From: a candidate division WWE3 bacterium RIFCSPHIGHO2_01_FULL_40_23
GTDB lineage: Bacteria > Patescibacteriota > WWE3 > UBA101185 > 2-01-FULL-41-18
Direction: 5' to 3'
Length of the DNA stretch: 54,622 nt
NCBI GenBank assembly: GCA_001772615.1
Contig: MEUZ01000001.1
Location: 1-54,622 of the forward strand
Made by a program: the position numbers and the translations under genes. The notes under the pieces are model-generated. The model saw nothing but the letters and a program-made list of their open reading frames with translations, was not told the origin of the DNA and did no database searches. This document shows positions 20,478-45,913 of the stretch, in pieces. Numbering within the stretch: the first letter of the stretch is position 1; each line of letters starts with the position of its first letter.

Positions 20478-20765
20478 TTAGCGGTTTCCCTTCATCTGTC
20501 TGAAGCAGTTGTCGCAGAGTACTGGCTTGTCTCCTTTTGGTTCAAAAGGAACCGTAGCCTTGCCCCCGCAGTTTGAACAAACCGTTTCATACATCTGTCT
20601 TGGGCCTCTGTTTCTGCCCATTGAGTTTTTCTTTGCCGCTCTGCAATCAGGGCATCTTTTAGGCTCATTGGTAAAACCCTTTTGAGCATAAAAATCCTGC
20701 TCCGCCGCGGTAAATACAAACTCTCTGCCGCAATCAACGCATGTTAATGTTTTATCTTGTGACAT
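20478..20765 (-). CDS. Zinc-ribbon / CxxC-x17-CxxC domain protein
   Basis: MSQDKTLTCVDCG.EF.FTAAEQ.FY..KGF.NEPKRCPDCR...R.MYE.VCSNCG....VPF.P....PV.C..CF; GGAGG SD. Confidence 0.92.
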   Translation of the reverse strand: MSQDKTLTCVDCGREFVFTAAEQDFYAQKGFTNEPKRCPDCRAAKKNSMGRNRGPRQMYETVCSNCGGKATVPFEPKGDKPVLCDNCFRQMKGNR

Positions 20766-20993
20766 TTTCTTGGAACTTTCACCTCCTTTGACATTCCCCA
20801 CTTTTGCTAACTATCCCGGGGATGCCAAAGGGCAAAGCCAAGGAGTCCTGCAACTTCGGGTAAATGATACTAACGGGATATTAACATTATCTAAAAACAA
20901 ATGCAAAAGAGGTCAAGCCGAGGGTCCAGGTCTGGCCTAAAAAAACCGCAGGGGGTTTGCACCATCTGCGGTTAACTGGCACTCTATCCCCTC

Positions 20994-21242: not shown

Positions 21243-21389
21243 CTCAAACTCCTCTCTTTTTGATTTGGTTTGTATGTGCAAATTATACATAAAGCAATTC
21301 TTAATATCAACACTATAGGTTCAGCATTGTGCGGATCTTCTGATTCTAAACTCTTGTTATAATCACAGAATAAGAAAAACACTTTACTT

Positions 21390-25818: not shown

Positions 25819-27018
25819 TTATTTGCTTTGGGCAAGTGTAGCAAGAAATTCCTCATTGCTTTTTGTTTTTCTCATTCTCTCTATTACAAGCTGTGTAGCT
25901 TCCCTCTCATCAAGAAGATCAACCATTCTTCTTAATCTATAAACCGCCTCAATAGTTTTCTTGTCATATAAGAGCTCCTCATGCCTTGTAGATGACTTTT
26001 TAATGTCAATGGCAGGGTATATCCTTCTTTCAGCAAGTGATCTGTCTAAATGAAGCTCCATATTTCCCGTGCCTTTAAACTCCTCGTAAATTAAGTCATC
26101 CATACGCGAGCCCGTATCAACAAGCGCGGTGGCAATAATAGTTAAACTCCCCGCATTCTCAAAGTTTCTTGCCGCACCGAAAAAGTGCTTAGGTGGGTAC
26201 AAAGCCACAGGATCAAAACCACCCGACAAAGTACGCCCCGAAGGAGGAACAGTCATGTTATACGCCCTCGCAAGCCTTGTTAAAGAATCCATCAGTATAA
26301 CAACATCTTTCCCCGCTTCCGAGAGCCTTTTAGCACGTTCAAGTACAATTTCGGCAGCTCTTGTTTGGGCATCGGCCGCTTCATCAAAATTACTGGCAAC
26401 AACCTCACCCTTAACGCTTCTTTGCATATCCGTAACCTCCTCGGGTCGCTCCCCTATTAAGGCGACCATCAAAACAACATTAGGATGGTTCGCAGTAATT
26501 CCATTTGCAATATCTTTTAAAAGCCACGTTTTCCCTGCTTTCGGAGGGGCAACAATCATAGCCCTCTGGCCTTTTCCGATAGGCGCTATGGCGTCAATAA
26601 GACGGGTTGAATTGATGTCTTTATCGGTTTCAAGTTTTAACCACTGGTTTGGGAAAACGGGCGTAAGTTTTTCAAATAAAGGTCTTTTCTTTGCGGTGTC
26701 GGGGTCCATGCCCTCAACCTTGTCCACTCTTAATAGGGATAGGTATCTTTCATTTTCTTTCGGGGGTCTTGCCATACCTTCAATAATATCCCCCATCCTT
26801 AAGGAAAATCTTCTGATTTGGGACTGGCTGATATAAACATCTCTTGGAAGGTTTTCCTTCACGTTTGAATCCTCCTGCCTTAAAACGCCGTAATCGGGAA
26901 GAATTTCAAGGACACCTTTTACCATGATAGTTTCACCGGTAAAGCCCTCAGCGGCAAAATCCGAGCCGTTCGCATTGGCTCCATTCTGGTAAGGCTGACT
27001 GTTTTGAGTCTGATACAT
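25819..27018 (-). CDS. rho: Transcription termination factor Rho (short N-terminus)
   Basis: PIGKGQRAMIVAPPKAGKT, DSLTRLARAYN, FKGTGNMELHL. Confidence 0.98.
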   Translation of the reverse strand: MYQTQNSQPYQNGANANGSDFAAEGFTGETIMVKGVLEILPDYGVLRQEDSNVKENLPRDVYISQSQIRRFSLRMGDIIEGMARPPKENERYLSLLRVDKVEGMDPDTAKKRPLFEKLTPVFPNQWLKLETDKDINSTRLIDAIAPIGKGQRAMIVAPPKAGKTWLLKDIANGITANHPNVVLMVALIGERPEEVTDMQRSVKGEVVASNFDEAADAQTRAAEIVLERAKRLSEAGKDVVILMDSLTRLARAYNMTVPPSGRTLSGGFDPVALYPPKHFFGAARNFENAGSLTIIATALVDTGSRMDDLIYEEFKGTGNMELHLDRSLAERRIYPAIDIKKSSTRHEELLYDKKTIEAVYRLRRMVDLLDEREATQLVIERMRKTKSNEEFLATLAQSK

Positions 27019-27134
27019 AAAAATTTAAGGGGATAAATCCAATTAGCCCAAATCAAATAATTTGATACGAAATTAAACTTTGCATGATGTCTTTGGGAAG
27101 ATTCTGGGTGAAGACTAAACTAATCTTCGCTTTA

Positions 27135-27163
27135 ACTTTACCCTAATCAAAAATTGTTGTCAA
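27135..27163 (-). promoter_or_regulatory. Putative rho promoter
   Basis: TTGACA-17-TAAAGT on the minus strand. Confidence 0.6.
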
Positions 27164-27197
27164 TTGAGAAATTGTTGAGCCTAGCAACAGCGTCACC

Positions 27198-27240
27198 GTC
27201 ATTGCGAGGAGGCCGCCGCAGGCGAGCCACGAAGCAATCT
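27198..27240. repeat. REP-like element (GTCATTGCGA...GAAGCAATCT)
   Basis: Same frame as 28108, 28341 and 28953. Confidence 0.8.
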
Positions 27241-27254
27241 CCTTAAAAACAGTT

Positions 27255-28085
27255 AGGGCAGTGAATCTTCATTTGTAATCTATCCGATTCACTGCCCTTG
27301 GGGTGGAGGTGGGATTTGCGGTGCCTGGGATGTCCTCGCTGGGCGAAGTATACCAGGTATCAAACACACAAACCCCACCTCGTCGTGTGAGAGCTGACCC
27401 TAAGAAAAAAAGGATCAACTCCCACAGGTGCGGTGCGATTAAAACTGGCCTCGAAGGTAGGTCAAATCGCACCCGCTCTGGACTCGCTCTGGCGGTTCTT
27501 TTTACACAGGTTGGGGGTTTACGCCCTTTTTCCCTGCGCAAGCTGGAAAAGGAATCCTACTTTCCTGCTTGAATGAAGAACACTCCGCCAAAGATCAACC
27601 CGGGCCTTCGCGTGTATCACCGGGTTGGTAACATCCCTGAATCCAAACTTCCTCGCGCATAGGAGGCTATTTTTAGCCCGCGATGAAGTTTCGCTGATTC
27701 CCGTGTCTGAAACCAGCAGGATTCAGGGTCCCTCCAGGATCAAGTCTGCATCCCACGTTGCAGATACTCTGGAAGGTCGTTAGTTTGGGCCAGTGCGGTC
27801 GGCGAGGGCAGAGAGCGCTAGGGAGCACTCGCACCTAGATTGCAGCCGCCAGTTGTTTAGCAAGGTCATTAGCCCAAAGACTAATAACGCCTTCGGGGGG
27901 CAAGGTGTGCCCGCTTGCGTCGGTTGCGGCGGCTGAAAGCACCGAAGCCGCGCCCGGCCCAGTTACATTCCAGCAGGCGGGGAAACGCATAGTTCCCATG
28001 TCGGGTGTGACGGCATCTCACAAGGAGAGCCCACACCGCACAGCCTGCTGAGCTGCTGCTGCCCTATCCTATCTGAGGGCACAGA
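27255..28085 (-). ncRNA. Candidate large structured ncRNA (~830 nt) of unknown family
   Basis: GC-rich, no ORF over ~90 codons, nearly continuous nested helices. Minus strand favoured by an upstream TTGACA-17-TATGCT promoter and a 3' hairpin plus T-tract. Confidence 0.65.
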
Positions 28086-28107
28086 AAGCCAAAAAAGCAT
28101 TTATCTT

Positions 28108-28194
28108 GTCATTGCGAGCGTTCGAACCAAGTTCGAATAGCAATCCCGACGGGATCGCTTCGTCATTCGCCTAAGGCGAATTCTTCGCGATGAC
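28108..28194. repeat. REP-like paired element
   Basis: GTCATTGCGAG...GCAATC...GATCGCTTCG...CGCGATGAC. Confidence 0.8.
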
Positions 28195-28265
28195 ACAAAG
28201 GTAAATACCTCACTTGCCTTCCTGCTAAATAGGCAGTAAAAAATCTGTTTCTAAGGGTAATTTGT

Positions 28266-28305
28266 AGCATATCGCATCCATTTACCCTTGTCAAGTTGCT
28301 ATAGG
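28266..28305 (-). promoter_or_regulatory. sigma70 promoter with upstream CCTATAG, pointing toward the large RNA
   Basis: Minus strand CCTATAG-caac-TTGACA-17-TATGCT. Confidence 0.65.
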
Positions 28306-28340
28306 TTAATACCAGCCAAAACCTTTTACTTTCTTTACGT

Positions 28341-28471
28341 GTCATTGCGAACGAAGTGAAGCAATATAAGGGGATTGCTTCGGGCTTGAGCCCTCGCAAT
28401 GACGTTGTAAGTCGTCATTCTGGCGAAAGCCAGAATCTACAATTCTAGATTCCTGCTTTCGCAGGAATGAC
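28341..28471. repeat. REP-like cluster
   Basis: GTCATTGCGAAC...CGCAATGAC; GTCATTCTGGCGAAAGCCAGAATCT; GATTCCTGCTTTCGCAGGAATGAC. Confidence 0.85.
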
Positions 28472-28562
28472 ATAGTGAAGACCGGAATGAATAAAAAGCT
28501 TTGGTTGGCGGCGAATGTTTGGCTCTCAATGAGATTCCAAAATTCGCCGTCCGATCCTGTGA

Positions 28563-28793
28563 TTACGTAAACTTGTACCACAGGATGAGGATACCAGCTA
28601 AGGGGGTCAGAACGAGTACCCAAAGCTGGAGGGTGGTGCTGTAATCGCTACCAGGGGCTTGCCGGCATACAACTCCGGATGACGAGTTTGAAACTTTCCC
28701 GCTCATCCAGATTGTCCCTCCGACAATGATCGCCCCAAAGAGAACCGCTGCTAACACCCCATTAGCAGCAATTGACAAAAATTCAGCAATCAT
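28563..28793 (-). CDS. Small 2-TM membrane protein
   Basis: GGAGG SD before ATG 28793; two hydrophobic helices. Confidence 0.65.
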   Translation of the reverse strand: MIAEFLSIAANGVLAAVLFGAIIVGGTIWMSGKVSNSSSGVVCRQAPGSDYSTTLQLWVLVLTPLAGILILWYKFT

Positions 28794-28952
28794 TTTATCC
28801 TCCATCATTCTTTTATGTACCGATTAATTTCCTTCCCTACCCGATCCCAAAGCGGCACGTCTTTCGAATCGGAAAGTAAATTAGACTTTCAGGAAGGCAG
28901 GTTAAAAGAAAACTTCTTCCAACCTGTCTTTCTAAAAGCATCATGTTTTCCC

Positions 28953-29150
28953 GTCATTGCGACCATGAAGTAGAGCGCAAGCTCTCACTTCACGGGAAGC
29001 AATCCCCTTAACAGATCGCTTCGTCACTACGTTCCTCGCGATGACGCGTCAATGTCATTGTGATCGCGAGGCAAAACCGAAGCGGGAAGCAATCTCGTCA
29101 TTCCGGGCTTGACCCGGAATCTACAGATGCCGGATCGGGTCCGGCATGAC
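28953..29150. repeat. REP-like cluster
   Basis: Several GTCAT-/-ATGAC hairpins, e.g. GTCATTCCGGGCTTGACCCGGAATCT and GATGCCGGATCGGGTCCGGCATGAC. Confidence 0.85.
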
Positions 29151-29268
29151 ACATACCTTGAAATCCGTCTGTTTAAAATTTCTACTCCCTTAGAGTAAAA
29201 CCCTTAAACAAACGGCTGATGAATGCAAACTTTCGTTCACTCTCATCAGCCGGACAAAGCAGGTAGAA

Positions 29269-29997
29269 TTAGTGGCCCTTCTTCCCCTTCCCTGCGCCGC
29301 GTGCCTTATTGCGAAAGTCACGATCATCGGCGGCGCGGGCGGCCTTGGCTTTGGCGATCTCAGCGGCTGTCTTTCCGGATTTTTCGACAGCGGAAAAGCC
29401 ATCATCGCGACCGCGGAAAAACCTGACATGGGAGTTGGCTATACCCACAGCCTTGCCCATAATGGCTGTAGCTTCCAGGTAGCTCCCATTGCGGTTACCG
29501 TCCTTAGGTTCAAGTTTGGACAAGGCCTCTTCCTTCATTGCAAACGCTTCCTCCGGGAGGTTCGTCTTAAAGCGGCCGGCTTCGCCAATCAAACTCTGGA
29601 AGCGTTTCACCATTGGCCCGAGGGCTTCATGGGCAAGTTCCTCAATAACTTTGTTACCCAACACTTTCGCCAGGTCATATTGCCGAGCTTTGAAAGCTTC
29701 CACGACCACGGCAAAAAGCCGCTCAACCATCTTCAAAGCGACACCACGTGTGGCAACCCAACCCGCCAACTTTTCAGCACGGCGTTTCTGGGCGTCAAGA
29801 ATGTAACGAGCTTTGGCCCGGTCCCAGGAAAACTGGGCTTGGACCTTAGCGGTTTGATACAGTTTGCACTGATACCCGCAGAAATGGCTATGGACTACGA
29901 CGCGCACCTGCCTCTCACCAACCATTTCGAAACGGTCCGTGGGAAAAACGCAACCTTTACCGTCACTTTGCGGCACGTCGTTGCACCGCAGAAACAA
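29269..29997 (-). CDS. Hypothetical protein (Cys/His N-terminus, helical body, basic tail); possibly joined to 29895-30116
   Basis: 242-codon ORF with a protein-like composition; TTG start. Confidence 0.65.
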   Translation of the reverse strand: MFLRCNDVPQSDGKGCVFPTDRFEMVGERQVRVVVHSHFCGYQCKLYQTAKVQAQFSWDRAKARYILDAQKRRAEKLAGWVATRGVALKMVERLFAVVVEAFKARQYDLAKVLGNKVIEELAHEALGPMVKRFQSLIGEAGRFKTNLPEEAFAMKEEALSKLEPKDGNRNGSYLEATAIMGKAVGIANSHVRFFRGRDDGFSAVEKSGKTAAEIAKAKAARAADDRDFRNKARGAGKGKKGH

Positions 29998-30116
29998 CGG
30001 TAAACTTCCCCGTCACTGGACCAACTCCCCTTCTCTGGAAGCGAAACCTTCGCAGGTCCCGCCACCAGAACCGTAGTTGGCAAAGCCGCCACGGCCGTAC
30101 TGGTAATGGTGTCCAT
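29895..30116 (-). CDS. Hypothetical ORF overlapping 29997 (possible N-terminal half of a frameshifted gene)
   Basis: Strong AGGAGAAAAAAG-ATG start; 103-nt overlap with the next ORF. Confidence 0.45.
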   Translation of the reverse strand: MDTITSTAVAALPTTVLVAGPAKVSLPEKGSWSSDGEVYRCFCGATTCRKVTVKVAFFPRTVSKWLVRGRCAS

Positions 30117-30302
30117 CTTTTTTCTCCTATTGAAAGGACTTACTTAAATTAGCCTCCGCAAGGCGCGGAAAGCTATCCGAACCAGAACACAAATTTGTGC
30201 AACTCACCTCAACTAGCAATTTCGCATTCTGATTCGGACAGCTTTCACAAGAAGTTAATTTTCAAGATCACAGGTTTTTATTTTTAAAGACGATTTGAGA
30301 AT

Positions 30303-30353
30303 AAAAAACTGAAGGGGAGAAAACTTATCTATGATGAATAAGTCAAACTCCCC
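30303..30353 (-). terminator. Long-stem terminator
   Basis: GGGGAG/CTCCCC plus ACTTAT/ATAAGT stems followed by T6 on the minus strand. Confidence 0.7.
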
Positions 30354-30713
30354 ATCCTGAAACTCTTTGGCCCGCAATAGCCTTGAGTCCGTTTTTAGAA
30401 GATCGCCCATCCTCTTAAACGTAACGGTTCAGGTTGCCGACTGATCTATTCCCACTTAGCTTGCCGATGGCTAAGCTGATCAGATTGGGTTGGCATCTTT
30501 TTAACTCTTTGAAAAGAGCTTCACCTCCACCTGTTTATTTCCAGGCTTTTAGGGCGAAGTCAGGAATAGGCTTACAGACAATGGTAAGCCACTGACCTTC
30601 AGATGCCATGGGAGGAATGCGCGCGCTTTAACGGATCATTTCTTCTCCTTTCCCGGGGCTGCCTCATGGACAGAACTTAATCCCGGACTAAAGGCGCGCT
30701 GGGCACCCGAAAA

Positions 30714-30878
30714 TCAGTCGCGACTATCGCAGACACAGTCCGCCTTCAGATGAAGGCAGTCTGGGCAAAAGGCCGCACTCGGGTCCGCAGGGGGAAGCTC
30801 AACCTGAACAATTTGACCGTCACGGATGGCCGTGACTGTCGTCTTACTCCCCTGCTTGTTTGAATTATTATTAGCCAT
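30714..30878 (-). CDS. 54-aa Cys-rich microprotein (not in the ORF track)
   Basis: GGGAGGGAGG SD; MANNNSNKQGSKTTVTAIRDGQIVQVELPPADPSAAFCPDCLHLKADCVCDSRD*. Confidence 0.65.
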   Translation of the reverse strand: MANNNSNKQGSKTTVTAIRDGQIVQVELPPADPSAAFCPDCLHLKADCVCDSRD

Positions 30879-31050
30879 CTTTCCTCCCTCCCGAGAAAGA
30901 GGAGTCGGGGGTTAAAGTTCAGAACTCCCGGCCCATACATAATTCCAATTAAAAAACCAGGTTTTAGAGAGAATCGCTGGGTAAATTACAATTCATTCCA
31001 AAACCTGGTCTTTTCTCTCTCCTAGAAATCATCAAACATTTACGTCTCAT

Positions 31051-31195
31051 GTCATCCTGAACTGACTTTATGTCATGCCGGATTGGATCCTTGTCATCCT
31101 GAACTTGATTCAGGACCCCTGCATCCGCAGGGACAGGTCTAATCCTAGATTCTGACTTTCGTCAGAATGACAAAGTTCTTAGGCGCCAGAATGAC
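31051..31195. repeat. REP-like cluster
   Basis: GTCATCCTGAAC..., GTCATCCTGAACTTGATTCAGGA, GATTCTGACTTTCGTCAGAATGAC. Confidence 0.85.
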
Positions 31196-31224
31196 GATAA
31201 ACAACCGCCTTCAACTACAGGATT

Positions 31225-31264
31225 ACTATATCATAACTATAGGTTAATGTCAACCTGCTATAGG
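31225..31264 (-). promoter_or_regulatory. sigma70 promoter with two CCTATAG motifs
   Basis: CCTATAG-cagg-TTGACA-(17 nt containing CCTATAG)-TATAGT. Confidence 0.7.
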
Positions 31265-31467
31265 CTAACACAAGCTACACCCGCCCGAGAGTGAATTAAG
31301 AGATTCCCGCTTTTCCGCCAAAGGCGGACAGGTGCGGGGAATACACCCCCACGGAGCAAGCTCCGTAGATGTCCGCTCATTTATGACAATGGTTGGTAGA
31401 AGGCGGTCAAGCGCGGGGGTGAGAGGGACGATCGAAAGGCCTAATGACGTAAAGATAATGGCCTAAA

Positions 31468-32160
31468 TTATTCGCCCAAGAAACGGAGTATTAAATCAGG
31501 GGAGACGGAGTTAATGATCTCCGGGGAAAGAGCCCCCTCCTCTAGTGCGAGGTACGAATACCAATCTGCAACATGATCCCGCAAAGCCTCAAGCAGTAAA
31601 CGCTCGGCCGCCTCCTTGTTTCGCAGCTGATCCCTCGTTTCTTCATTTCTTACAACCATATTCGTAGGCTTATGCGTAACTCTTACTGATGAGGCAACTT
31701 TATTAACGTTCTGCCCTCCGGCCTTAGTATGGGATCTTATAAAATCAAAGCGGCAGTCAGACTCAAGGTTCACAGCTACCTTCTTATTTTCAAGGCAGTT
31801 TCTAACCCAACTACAGTATCCCTCAAAAAACCTGTTTTCCTCCTCCGCGTTTTTAAAACGTGGGAAGCTCTGTAAAACACCCATAATCCTTCCCTGCGCT
31901 TCCTCTTTTCTTTTTTCCTTGGAAAACGAAACGGATATCTCAAAAGCTTTTGCCGAAGTTTTACTCCCCTTAGCCCTTTCCTTTCCTCCTTTGCCGCCAC
32001 CCTTCCCTCCCCTTTCAGGGTTCACATGTTCAAAATCTTCATATGCTTCCCACAGCTCCTTTTTTTCTTCTTTGACTTCACCGGAATTTTCAACCGGTTT
32101 ATCGCCATCCCCACCACCATTAATCAACGCATCATCCGTCGTTTCAAACCTATTGCTCAT
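31468..32160 (-). CDS. Standalone class I peptide chain release factor (GGQ) domain protein
   Basis: F.RS...AGGQNVNKV.S.VR.TH.PT...V.....R.Q..NK..A...L. Confidence 0.88.
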   Translation of the reverse strand: MSNRFETTDDALINGGGDGDKPVENSGEVKEEKKELWEAYEDFEHVNPERGGKGGGKGGKERAKGSKTSAKAFEISVSFSKEKRKEEAQGRIMGVLQSFPRFKNAEEENRFFEGYCSWVRNCLENKKVAVNLESDCRFDFIRSHTKAGGQNVNKVASSVRVTHKPTNMVVRNEETRDQLRNKEAAERLLLEALRDHVADWYSYLALEEGALSPEIINSVSPDLILRFLGE

Positions 32161-32258
32161 ATTGAAACTTTACCAGAATTTCCGGTTTATGAGAAAGAAA
32201 AAGCCCCTCCTCTACTCGCATAGTCACACGCGAAGTAAAGCAAGGGGCTAGCCGAGTG

Positions 32259-32519
32259 CTAGGCTACACCGGCAAAAGGTCTCCATGCTTCAATGCTAAA
32301 TTGACGAAGAACGGGATGGGCTTTAAGCACATTAAGAAACTCCTCCGGGGAGTTTAGGATGTCTTGAAGCTGCCATCCTTGAGTCGCGAATTGCTGTGGA
32401 ATCTGATCAGAATTGGTTACCTCAACACTAACCTGGATCGATCCATATCCGCCATAGTAAATTGCAACCCAGCGGTACATACCCTTCGCCATCTTCACAC
32501 AGAAGACACCTGAAAACAT
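32259..32519 (-). CDS. Hypothetical protein (paralog of 32713)
   Basis: GGAGG SD; shares EFL.....HPVL with 32713-32982. Confidence 0.7.
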   Translation of the reverse strand: MFSGVFCVKMAKGMYRWVAIYYGGYGSIQVSVEVTNSDQIPQQFATQGWQLQDILNSPEEFLNVLKAHPVLRQFSIEAWRPFAGVA

Positions 32520-32619
32520 GACACACTCCTCCAATTCAGTTTAGGATTTTGAAGACTTCAGCGGGGAAACAAGTTATGATTATAGGAAAATATTTTTAAA
32601 GATGCAAGCGCAAAAAGAG

Positions 32620-32694
32620 CGCCCCCGGGAGGATTTGAACCATCCACTTCATCCGTTAACCGCGGATTGCTCTATGCCTTTAAGCTACGGGGGC
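32620..32694 (-). tRNA. Atypical tRNA-Asn(GTT), possibly a pseudogene
   Basis: GCCCCCG/CGGGGGC acceptor, ATCCG/CGGAT anticodon stem, loop CGGTTAA (G33), extra T in the T-stem, no encoded CCA. Confidence 0.75.
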
Positions 32695-32712
32695 GATTGC
32701 AAGTTGGACCTC

Positions 32713-32982
32713 CTAGTGGAGGGTGGAGCCAAAAACCTCGCTCCAATTAACACTGGAAAGAACCGGATGCTTACCAGCCATTTCAAGAAACTCGGGAATA
32801 GTATAATCCTTATCTGAAGGACGAAAATCAAGCTCTTGGCCCGAGAGCGCAGCCTCCAGTGAAACACCCAGTACAGTAAAGAAACTGCCTCCCACCCTAT
32901 ACTTCCCACCATTCCAGTCGGTTACACCTACCCATTTGACCCCATCTCCAACTCTCACGCGAAATGCCTGGATAACTGGCAT
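32713..32982 (-). CDS. Hypothetical protein (paralog of 32259)
   Basis: AAAGGAG SD; EFLEMAGKHPVL motif. Confidence 0.7.
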   Translation of the reverse strand: MPVIQAFRVRVGDGVKWVGVTDWNGGKYRVGGSFFTVLGVSLEAALSGQELDFRPSDKDYTIPEFLEMAGKHPVLSSVNWSEVFGSTLH

Positions 32983-33065
32983 TGAGCGTCTCCTTTCTGT
33001 GTTATGAGGATTTTACCATTAAAAATCTGTAGGGAGAAATCTACCTAAACCTGATAAAATCTAAA

Positions 33066-33515
33066 TCAAGCTGATAACTGGTGCTGCATTTGCCCAAGGA
33101 AACTTTCAAAAATCTTTTTCTGTGCATATTGCCCACCTTTGTCAGCCTCTTCAACATCCCTAGCGTCAAAGGCTAAGAGGTATATCTTTTCACCTGTTCT
33201 TCTTTCAAAATCACGAGCCATCCTTAACTTTTTTTCAACAACTTCAGACCCACCAACAGTAACATCTATTCTTAACAAGTCCTCTTTTTGCGGATCCCAG
33301 ATCCAAAAGTCTGTATGTTCATCCTCATCAGAAGCATCTCCTTTTGCAATGCTCAAGTATCTACGATCAATGTAATCTTTATTGGAAGCAACAGCAAAGC
33401 CGCCGGATCGTGCAAGCACATTAAAAACAACCTCCTGCGCTATCTTTCCATATTCTTCTGAACCCGGATTTTCATCACTTGGAAACAAAGACATATAAAT
33501 AATATTATTATCCAA
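33066..33515 (-). CDS. Hypothetical protein, possible PD-(D/E)xK-like fold
   Basis: Acidic motifs EDEHTDF...RIDVT...EKK; fold assignment is tentative. Confidence 0.6.
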   Translation of the reverse strand: MDNNIIYMSLFPSDENPGSEEYGKIAQEVVFNVLARSGGFAVASNKDYIDRRYLSIAKGDASDEDEHTDFWIWDPQKEDLLRIDVTVGGSEVVEKKLRMARDFERRTGEKIYLLAFDARDVEEADKGGQYAQKKIFESFLGQMQHQLSA

Positions 33516-33754
33516 GTAGAGATGAAAAGCAAAAAATTAAGTGGATTTAAAATCGGGAGATAGACACTGCCCCCATCTACCTCCCAATTCAAATCCTATA
33601 CAAGATTTTTTGAAATGTCAATGTTTGACGCTTAAAGTATTGACAATATAAATAACCATGATGGTTAAACACTTAGTTCAGAATGGAAACATCTGATATA
33701 TGTATGAGGACATTCACTACTCATTATTCACGTGGTAGTAAAGATTGACAGTGA

Positions 33755-35639: not shown

Positions 35640-35677
35640 ATTATATAGGACAACCACCCTTTTGTCAAGGCTATAGG
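35640..35677 (-). promoter_or_regulatory. sigma70 promoter with CCTATAG
   Basis: CCTATAG-cc-TTGACA-17-TATAAT. Confidence 0.75.
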
Positions 35678-45875: not shown

Positions 45876-45913
45876 AGTATACCTGAATTTCCCCTCAGTG
45901 TCAAGCCTATAGG
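45876..45913 (-). promoter_or_regulatory. sigma70 promoter with CCTATAGG
   Basis: CCTATAG-gc-TTGACA-17-TATACT. Confidence 0.7.

What the first reader, a model, noticed from the sequence alone, without database searches (positions are those of the whole stretch)
27255..28085. ~830-nt ORF-free, densely structured RNA upstream of rho
This GC-rich block has near-continuous helices: 13-bp perfect 27255-27267/27286-27298; GAGGTGGGATTT/AAACCCCACCTC enclosing GGTGCCTGG/CCAGGTATC; a 15-bp helix 27386-27400/27412-27426 whose three mismatches all become G.U on the minus strand; GCGGTGCGATT/AATCGCACC; CAACCCGG/CCGGGTTG; 10-bp CCCTGAATCC/GGATTCAGGG closing a multibranch; TTAGTTTGGGC/GCCCAAAGACTAA; CAGCCGCC/GGCGGCTG (crossing, possible pseudoknot); CCCGCTTGC/GCAGGCGGG; GGTGTG/CACACC. 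A minus-strand TTGACA-17-TATGCT promoter (28266-28294) points into it and a hairpin plus T-tract ends it, though some wobble pairs favour the plus strand. I found no group I/II intron, RNase P or tmRNA signatures. Size and complexity put it in the class of giant ornate RNAs (GOLLD/ROOL/OLE), possibly a new family.
Basis: partly seen in the sequence, partly recalled or inferred. Interest (0 to 1): 0.85.

Follow-up and report, generated by a model that had tools for sequence, protein, structure and literature searches.

The report
Orphan 1-kb hairpin-dense non-coding unit
A roughly 1,000-base gene-free stretch in front of the rho gene of an ultra-small groundwater bacterium really is packed with stable hairpins and looks like an RNA gene, but it exists only in this one lineage, so a new family of giant RNAs cannot be claimed.

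Summary
Window 27255-28085 is ORF-free and single-copy, shows no codon periodicity, and folds far better than shuffles (z -6.5 on plus, -8.1 on minus). It matches no Rfam 15 family, even at E<=10.

The natural unit is larger: 27241-28256 on the minus strand, 1,016 nt. A promoter of a genome-enriched "CTATAG-box" class precedes it. It ends at a 13-bp hairpin plus U-run. A 12-bp helix unique in the genome pairs its 5' and 3' ends. Internal wobble pairs favour the minus strand (24 vs 9).

The "new ornate RNA family" reading is not established.
- No homologue turned up in 134 class genomes (BLAST), about 490 order and phylum genomes (two covariance models), 160 rho loci, or phage, plasmid and viral collections.
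- The closest relatives (Rho 86-88% identical) lack the whole island of roughly 5.6-6 kb that carries it.
- Eight environmental assemblies carry it without a single substitution, so covariation cannot be tested. One has a 39-nt deletion that breaks three predicted helices.
- Hairpin-dense intergenic DNA is common in this genome: 13 of 57 ORF-free stretches score more negative.

Best reading: a lineage-specific, island-borne, probably transcribed structured non-coding RNA (about 40%). The main rival is functionless palindrome-rich spacer.

The parts
27241..28256 (-). Whole non-coding unit (1,016 nt), bounded by the 5'/3' closing helix
   Evidence: Fold of 28262-27235. MFE is -449.7 kcal/mol on minus and -416.6 on plus; ensemble diversity is 96 versus 161.
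28299..28304 (-). CTATAG box, 4 nt upstream of the -35 hexamer
   Evidence: CTATAG-N(2-5)-TTGACA occurs 6 times in the genome against 0.76 expected.
28266..28294 (-). Sigma-70-type promoter, TTGACA-17-TATGCT; predicted start near 28258
   Evidence: Promoter scan, 10 of 12 matches.
28245..28256 (-). 5' arm of the closing helix (CCUUAGAAACAG)
   Evidence: Pair probability 1.00. The 12-mer pair is unique in the genome. Chance of a helix of 12 bp or more between the two 24-nt end windows is 0.0016.
27241..27252 (-). 3' arm of the closing helix (CUGUUUUUAAGG), containing the U-run
28107..28195 (-). CGTC/REP-type nested-hairpin repeat module (closing stem plus three hairpins) inside the 5' part of the unit
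   Evidence: This is the only part of the unit with matches elsewhere in the genome and in other genomes of the class. GTCATTGCGA occurs 25 times in the genome.
27255..28085 (-). Single-copy GC-rich core, which is the finding itself: about ten local stem-loop or junction domains
27970..28051 (-). Domain with a 9-bp closing stem and two hairpins
   Evidence: probability 0.96.
27786..27961 (-). Largest multibranch domain (176 nt)
   Evidence: helix probabilities 0.89-0.99.
27899..27937 (-). 39 nt missing in one environmental assembly (L169); the deletion removes one arm of each of three predicted helices
27635..27728 (-). Three-way junction closed by a 10-bp helix, with no unpaired junction bases
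   Evidence: probability 1.00. Used for covariance model R1.
27487..27593 (-). Multibranch domain with A-rich loops
   Evidence: Used for covariance model R2.
27386..27426 (-). 16-bp hairpin with three G.U pairs on the minus strand
27306..27381 (-). 15-bp stem enclosing two further helices
27255..27298 (-). 13-bp perfect hairpin with an 18-nt loop, followed by UAACUGUUUUU: the terminator-like 3' end
   Evidence: The terminator scan did not list it because the loop exceeds 8 nt.
27196..27245 (.). CGTC/REP-type repeat between the unit and the rho promoter
   Evidence: Repeat families D4, I9 and I10.
27135..27163 (-). rho's own promoter-like site, TTGACA-17-TAAAGT
25819..27018 (-). rho
   Evidence: Pfam Rho_RNA_bind and ATP-synt_ab.

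Best explanation
The block is the core of a 1,016-nt non-coding transcription unit on the minus strand (27241-28256).

Proposed mechanism:
- A sigma-70-type promoter with an adjacent CTATAG box starts transcription near 28258.
- The RNA folds as it is made into about a dozen very stable, mostly local stem-loops and three- or four-way junctions.
- Transcription ends at a 13-bp hairpin followed by a U-run. rho then uses its own promoter.
- The first 12 nt behind the start pair with the U-rich 3' end. This closes the molecule and would protect both ends from exonucleases.

Origin: the unit is not ancestral. It sits in an island of roughly 5.6-6 kb that is richer in GC. The island also holds orphan small genes, a second tRNA-Asn-like gene and REP-type repeats. 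The closest relatives lack the island. Any role is therefore accessory and lineage-specific. It is neither a housekeeping RNA nor a conserved rho leader.

Shown: absence of coding signal, fold excess, single copy, absence from relatives, enrichment of the promoter class, end-to-end pairing and strand-biased wobble pairs.

Inferred: that it is transcribed, where the transcript starts and ends, and that the fold is selected. Its cellular role is unknown. My guess is a stable, free-standing structural or scaffold RNA brought in by foreign DNA.
For: - No ORF above 90 aa; periodicity 0.72 against 9-15 in genes; no Pfam hit in any of the six frames at E<=1.
- z -8.1 (minus) and -6.5 (plus). The minus-strand fold is 33 kcal/mol better and better defined. 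All centroid helices of 4 bp or more have probability 0.67-1.0, and most are at least 0.9.
- The promoter is found by the scan and belongs to the CTATAG-N2-5-TTGACA class: 6 observed against 0.76 expected, maximum 3 in 200 shuffles. The LPXTG protein/sortase operon promoter is in the same class.
- The 12-bp 5'/3' helix is unique in the genome, p about 0.0016.
- Wobble pairs flanked by Watson-Crick pairs: 24 on minus against 9 on plus, p=0.0135. G+T content is 50/50 on the two strands. REP-rich control regions give about 1:1.
- Single copy in the genome.
- The island is absent from relatives whose Rho is 86-88% identical.
Against: - No homologue anywhere, so there is no covariation and no evidence of selection on the fold.
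- Eight assemblies show no substitution in the unit. One carries a 39-nt deletion that breaks three helices.
- Fold excess of this size is common in this genome's intergenic DNA and is larger than in its rRNA region.
- Helices are long and near-perfect, as in young palindromes.
- By my own reading of the hairpin loops in the fold, no GNRA tetraloops stand out on either strand.
- The wobble test gave no signal on the RNase P control (7:8), so it is a weak test.
- The 3' hairpin is not a canonical terminator.
Confidence: 0.4

Rival explanations
1. Functionless palindrome-rich spacer. The island's non-coding DNA, like much of this genome's intergenic DNA, has accumulated hairpin-forming inverted repeats. 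Some are REP/CGTC-type and others may be leftovers of a donor genome's repeat families. The target is a unique-sequence stretch of such material. It may be transcribed incidentally, but the fold has no specific role.
For: - The whole 27100-29300 and 29800-31300 non-coding area has z from -2 to -14, while adjacent coding DNA scores about 0.
- 13 of 57 ORF-free stretches of the genome are more structured than the target.
- REP-type modules sit inside and beside the unit. They share its architecture of a closing stem around tandem hairpins.
- It is an orphan.
- A 39-nt deletion variant exists.
Against: - The target is single-copy, unlike the REP-rich stretches.
- The wobble asymmetry of 24 to 9 is not seen in REP-rich controls.
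- The end-to-end helix falls exactly at the predicted start and end.
- The promoter belongs to an enriched class.
Confidence: 0.3
2. Long structured distal leader of rho. Transcripts from the 28294 promoter read through the 27255-27298 hairpin into rho. The heavily paired, Rho-resistant leader would tune rho expression.
For: - It is on the same strand as rho and directly upstream of it.
- The 3' hairpin is a non-canonical terminator.
Against: - None of 160 rho loci, nor the seven closest-relative loci, has a GC-rich structured upstream region. Their upstream gaps are AT-rich and shorter.
- rho has its own promoter-like site at 27163-27135.
Confidence: 0.1
3. A DNA-level element: a non-autonomous mobile element bounded by 12-bp terminal inverted repeats, or a replication or recombination site of the island that works as folded single-stranded DNA.
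For: - Terminal inverted repeats match at 11 of 12 positions: CCTTAGAAACAG and CCTTAAAAACAG.
- It lies in a lineage-specific island.
- Both strands fold well, and 198 predicted pairs are shared between them.
Against: - Reading the flanks, I see no target-site duplication.
- Single copy.
- No transposase, integrase or replication gene is recognisable among the island ORFs tested.
- No tRNA-derived att repeat.
- Strand-biased wobble pairs point to RNA.
Confidence: 0.1
4. Decayed protein-coding gene.
For: The 90-aa minus-strand ORF (27269-27541) gives one marginal hit among 1.84 billion proteins, E 3.2e-5. The hit is to a thrice-repeated domain of a 1,206-aa protein that looks like a carbohydrate-binding type.
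Against: - The score sums three near-identical repeats of about 30-35 bits each, and there is only one hit in the whole library.
- The match does not continue collinearly into other frames or flanks.
- No Pfam hit in any frame.
- No codon periodicity.
Confidence: 0.05

Closest known systems
GOLLD and ROOL RNAs (large ornate bacterial RNAs; Weinberg et al. 2017, PMC5737381; cryo-EM study, bioRxiv 10.1101/2024.12.08.627333)
   Same: Length of 0.6-1 kb and no ORF. Many predicted multi-stem junctions. Sits in accessory, probably foreign DNA that also carries a tRNA-like gene; PMC5737381 says GOLLD and ROOL are often near tRNAs and in prophages.
   Different: No match to any Rfam 15 model, even at E<=10. 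No homologues, so no conserved nucleotides, covariation or supported pseudoknots. Helices are longer and more perfect. No phage genes were recognised in the island.
OLE RNA
   Same: Large structured non-coding RNA with its own transcription signals.
   Different: No match to any Rfam 15 family. From general knowledge, OLE is confined to Gram-positive extremophiles and anaerobes and has partner protein genes. No such context is present here.
CGTC-tagged REP palindromic repeats (Di Nocera et al. 2013, PMC3733652)
   Same: Small GC-rich hairpins in intergenic DNA that combine into larger folds and are plausibly transcribed. Copies beginning (C)GTCATTGCGA or GTCATTC lie inside (28107-28195) and beside (27196-27245, 28340-28480) the unit.
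   Different: The 830-nt core is single-copy in the genome and has no match in 134 genomes of the class, whereas the REP module does.
Rho-dependent autoregulatory leader of rho (E. coli, B. subtilis; from general knowledge)
   Same: Lies directly upstream of rho, on the same strand.
   Different: Known leaders are short, unstructured and C-rich so that Rho can load. This unit is heavily paired, has its own end signals, and is absent upstream of rho in all relatives examined.

Membership tests
GOLLD / ROOL / OLE and every other Rfam 15 family | Match to the family covariance model | tested here: not met
   cmscan at gathering thresholds over the whole window found only two tRNAs. cmscan at E<=10 over 26900-28700 found only chance hits of 13-24 bits to unrelated small RNAs.
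Ornate large RNA class (generic) | Structure conserved, with covariation, in several organisms | tested here: not met
   No homologue found: BLAST against 60 relatives and 134 class genomes; covariance models R1 and R2 against 89 order genomes and 400 phylum genomes each; 160 rho loci; phage, plasmid and viral collections.
Ornate large RNA class (generic) | Multi-stem junctions and pseudoknots | tested here: inconclusive
   The single-sequence fold predicts several three- and four-way junctions with high probability. Pseudoknots cannot be supported without homologues.
Ornate large RNA class (generic) | Transcribed as a discrete RNA | not testable with these tools
Only promoter, hairpin and end-pairing predictions are available.
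RNase P RNA / tmRNA | It is the genome's only copy of the housekeeping RNA | tested here: not met
   RNase P RNA is at C3:221529-221853, 71 bits. tmRNA is at C2:15200-15586.
REP / CGTC-tagged palindromic repeats | Many copies per genome of a short tagged palindrome | tested here: not met
   The core 27255-28085 has no second copy. Only the flanking and embedded modules are multi-copy.
MITE or other element with terminal inverted repeats | Terminal inverted repeats, target-site duplication and multiple copies | tested here: not met
   Inverted repeats matching at 11 of 12 positions are present. I see no duplication in the flanks (read), and the 12-mer occurs only at these two sites.
Conserved rho leader | Present upstream of rho in related genomes | tested here: not met

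The most novel reading that the evidence does not exclude
The unit is a genuine free-standing structured RNA of about 1 kb, with paired ends, carried by a small foreign island together with a tRNA-like gene and an RF-1-domain gene. It would be a Patescibacteria counterpart of the phage- and tRNA-associated GOLLD/ROOL RNAs. It would be the first member of an as yet unsampled family and possibly co-regulated with the cell-surface sortase operon through the shared CTATAG-box promoter.
Probability: 0.2. Interest if true: 0.7.

Novelty: new member of a known kind. Interest (0 to 1): 0.35.

Why it matters
If real, it would add a large structured RNA to a group of bacteria with tiny genomes, where every kilobase is expected to earn its keep. 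It would also suggest that such RNAs travel on small mobile islands.

As it stands it mainly teaches caution. In this genome, and probably in many Patescibacteria genomes, hairpin-dense, GC-elevated, ORF-free DNA is common. Fold energy and helix counts alone therefore do not identify an ornate RNA. Conservation or transcript data are needed.

Tried and rejected
- Rfam at gathering and at E<=10: nothing.
- RNase P identity: rejected, the gene is elsewhere.
- Conserved rho leader: rejected.
- Decayed gene: rejected by periodicity, six-frame Pfam and an all-library HMMER search, apart from one marginal repeat-inflated hit.
- Array of this genome's repeat families: rejected, the core is single-copy.
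- Integration at the tRNA: no att-like repeat of the tRNA-Asn 3' end.
- Anchoring on island proteins:
  - The 218/242-aa protein has no relative among 5.8 billion proteins.
  - RF-1-domain homologues (40-44% identity) lie in ordinary contexts without a similar ORF-free block.
- Population variation for a covariation test: the 8 assemblies carrying the unit show no substitution in it. Differences elsewhere are contig-end or scaffold-gap artefacts, two isolated substitutions outside the unit, and one 39-nt deletion.
- Exact 17-20-mers in viral contigs: no hits except one isolated 17-mer, about what chance would give.
- Covariance-model hits at per-genome E 0.02-0.18 in G054 and G174: judged chance, given 89-400 genomes searched.
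- GC content as evidence for RNA: weak. The whole island, including its 242-aa ORF, is GC-rich.

Full report
**What is there**

Window 27255-28085 lies between rho and a 4.4-kb gene-poor stretch.
- rho is at 25819-27018 on the minus strand (Pfam Rho_RNA_bind plus ATPase).
- The gene-poor stretch ends at an RF-1-domain gene, 31468-32160, also minus.

The block has no ORF above 90 aa. It has no 3-nt periodicity: 0.72, against 9-15 for rho, the M23 peptidase gene, obg and the neighbouring 242-aa ORF. None of its six frames hits Pfam at E<=1.

GC is 53-61%, against about 40-46% in the flanks and 36-42% for the contigs.

It folds far better than dinucleotide shuffles on both strands: -350.8 kcal/mol, z -6.5 on plus; -376.1 kcal/mol, z -8.1 on minus. 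The other two are real complementarities that lose to alternative pairings.

**Known families**

Rfam 15 gives nothing at gathering thresholds in the whole window except two tRNAs. At E<=10 over 26900-28700 it gives only chance hits. The genome's RNase P RNA is on contig 3 and its tmRNA on contig 2. The block is therefore not a group I or II intron, RNase P RNA, tmRNA, GOLLD, ROOL, OLE, HEARO or any other catalogued family.

**The real unit**

I folded the stretch from the predicted start to beyond the 3' hairpin (28262-27235, minus).
- A 12-bp helix forms between 28256-28245 (CCUUAGAAACAG) and 27252-27241 (CUGUUUUUAAGG), with probability 1.00.
- That 12-mer pair occurs nowhere else in the 1.01-Mb genome.
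- A helix this long between the two 24-nt end windows arises in 0.16% of shuffles.

The unit is thus 27241-28256, 1,016 nt. It holds about a dozen mostly local domains and hairpins, nearly all with helix probabilities of at least 0.9.

The first domain (28107-28195) is a copy of a nested-hairpin repeat.

The minus-strand fold is 33 kcal/mol more stable than the plus-strand fold and much better defined, with ensemble diversity 96 against 161.

**Strand and signals**

The minus-strand promoter TTGACA-17-TATGCT (28294-28266) is found by the scan. It carries a CTATAG box 4 nt upstream of the -35 hexamer.

The pattern CTATAG-N2-5-TTGACA occurs six times in the genome, against 0.76 expected and a maximum of 3 in 200 shuffles. 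Four of the six are in this window on the minus strand. They include the promoters of the LPXTG protein/sortase operon and of the neighbouring small-ORF transcript.

The 3' end is a perfect 13-bp hairpin followed by UAACUGUUUUU. It is not canonical, because the loop is 18 nt, so the terminator scan skipped it. rho has its own promoter-like site at 27163-27135.

Wobble pairs flanked by Watson-Crick pairs number 24 on minus and 9 on plus (p=0.0135). G+T content is 50/50 on the two strands. REP-rich control regions give about 1:1. The RNase P control gave 7:8, so the test is weak.

Together these features favour RNA-level pairing on the minus strand.

**Conservation**

This is where the ornate-RNA reading fails to gain support. 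No similar sequence was found in any of these searches:
- 60 GTDB relatives and 134 genomes of the class, where only the REP module hits;
- 160 rho-centred loci from genome and metagenome contigs;
- phage and plasmid records;
- viral contigs, searched with exact 17-20-mers.

Two covariance models also found nothing credible. R1 covers 27633-27778 and R2 covers 27485-27629. Each was run on 89 order genomes and 400 phylum genomes, and only chance-level hits came back.

A larger protein database holds closer relatives, with Rho 86-88% identical. Their contigs read surface protein, sortase, a 162-168-aa gene, in one lineage (L173-L176) a tRNA, then rho, M23 peptidase and obg. Nothing in them resembles window 27019-33000.

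So the roughly 5.6-6 kb between the 149-aa gene (33066-33515) and rho is specific to this lineage. It contains:
- a second tRNA-Asn(GTT)-like gene that Rfam does not recognise;
- the RF-1-domain gene;
- orphan small ORFs, one of 218/242 aa with no relative among 5.8 billion proteins;
- REP-type repeats;
- the unit.

**Population data**

Eight environmental assemblies carry the unit with no substitution. One of them, L169, lacks 39 nt (27899-27937), which removes one arm of each of three predicted helices. The other differences are contig-end or scaffold-gap artefacts, plus two isolated substitutions that lie outside the unit. Covariation is therefore untestable.

**In-genome control**

Sliding 300-nt windows show that all non-coding DNA of the island is hairpin-dense (z -2 to -14), while adjacent coding DNA is about 0.

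Across the genome, 57 ORF-free stretches of at least 450 nt have a median z of about -2.8. Thirteen are more negative than the target, and pieces from the rRNA region reach only -0.5 to -2.5.

Most of the extreme stretches contain multi-copy repeats beginning (C)GTCATTGCGA or GTCATTC. The target does not. These repeats fit the CGTC-tagged REP superfamily (PMC3733652).

Fold excess alone is therefore not diagnostic here.

**Coding rival**

An all-library HMMER search with the 90-aa minus-strand ORF gave a single hit among 1.84 billion proteins, at E 3.2e-5. The hit is to a thrice-repeated domain, each repeat contributing only 30-35 bits. The match does not extend into other frames or flanks. 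I judge it spurious.

**Verdict**

The most likely reading (about 0.4) is a lineage-specific, island-borne, independently transcribed structured RNA of about 1 kb with paired ends. The main rival (about 0.3) is functionless palindrome-rich spacer of the kind common in this genome. Minor rivals are a distal rho leader, a DNA-level element and a decayed gene.

It is not a member of any known family, and no new family can be claimed from one sequence.

Noticed in passing
window 28299-28304, 31258-31263, 35671-35676, 45907-45912 (all minus strand); also C3:70156 and C3:288000: A CTATAG box sits 2-5 nt upstream of TTGACA -35 hexamers: 6 occurrences against 0.76 expected. It links the promoters of the target, the island's small-ORF transcript, the LPXTG/sortase operon and a 173-aa ORF. 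This may be a shared operator. Looser copies precede leuS (17381) and the 107-aa ORF at 20478-20801 (motif at 21318).
   Followed up: partly
window 32619-32694 (minus): Second tRNA-Asn(GTT)-like gene inside the lineage-specific island. ARAGORN calls it, but Rfam's tRNA model does not reach threshold. The base before the anticodon is G instead of the usual U. It differs strongly from the other tRNA-Asn at C1:144185-144259.
   Followed up: partly
window 32720-32990 and 32262-32522 (minus): Two small ORFs (89 and 86 aa) flank the tRNA-Asn-like gene. Their C-termini look alike by eye (EFLEMAGKHPVL against EFLNVLKAHPVL), which suggests a local duplication.
   Followed up: no
window 29269-30116 (minus): A 73-aa ORF with a strong ribosome-binding site overlaps, in another frame, a 242-aa ORF (218 aa from its ATG). 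The 242-aa ORF has a C..C...HSHFCGYQC zinc-finger-like motif and a basic tail. It has no relative among 5.8 billion proteins. A frameshift or a split gene is possible.
   Followed up: partly
window 33555-33600: A segment of about 46 nt between the sortase gene and the next gene is 83-97% identical in relatives whose coding DNA is only about 70-78% identical.
   Followed up: partly
window 27196-27245, 28107-28195, 28340-28480, 28950-29150, 31040-31200: Nested-hairpin repeats starting (C)GTCATTGCGA or GTCATTC, about 25 copies of each motif in the genome. They are also present in other genomes of the class and fit the CGTC-tagged REP superfamily.
   Followed up: partly
window 31468-32160 (minus): RF-1-domain (ArfB-like) protein with a Lys/Gly/Glu-rich N-terminal extension. 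It belongs to a small family of 180-254-aa homologues (38-44% identity) found on short Patescibacteria-like contigs.
   Followed up: partly
C7:161410-161959 and C7:128878-129526 (same genome, outside the window): Two further single-copy, ORF-free, strongly folding stretches (z -8.6 and -5.8). The second has 14 against 3 strand-biased wobble pairs. Both are candidates of the same kind as the target.
   Followed up: no
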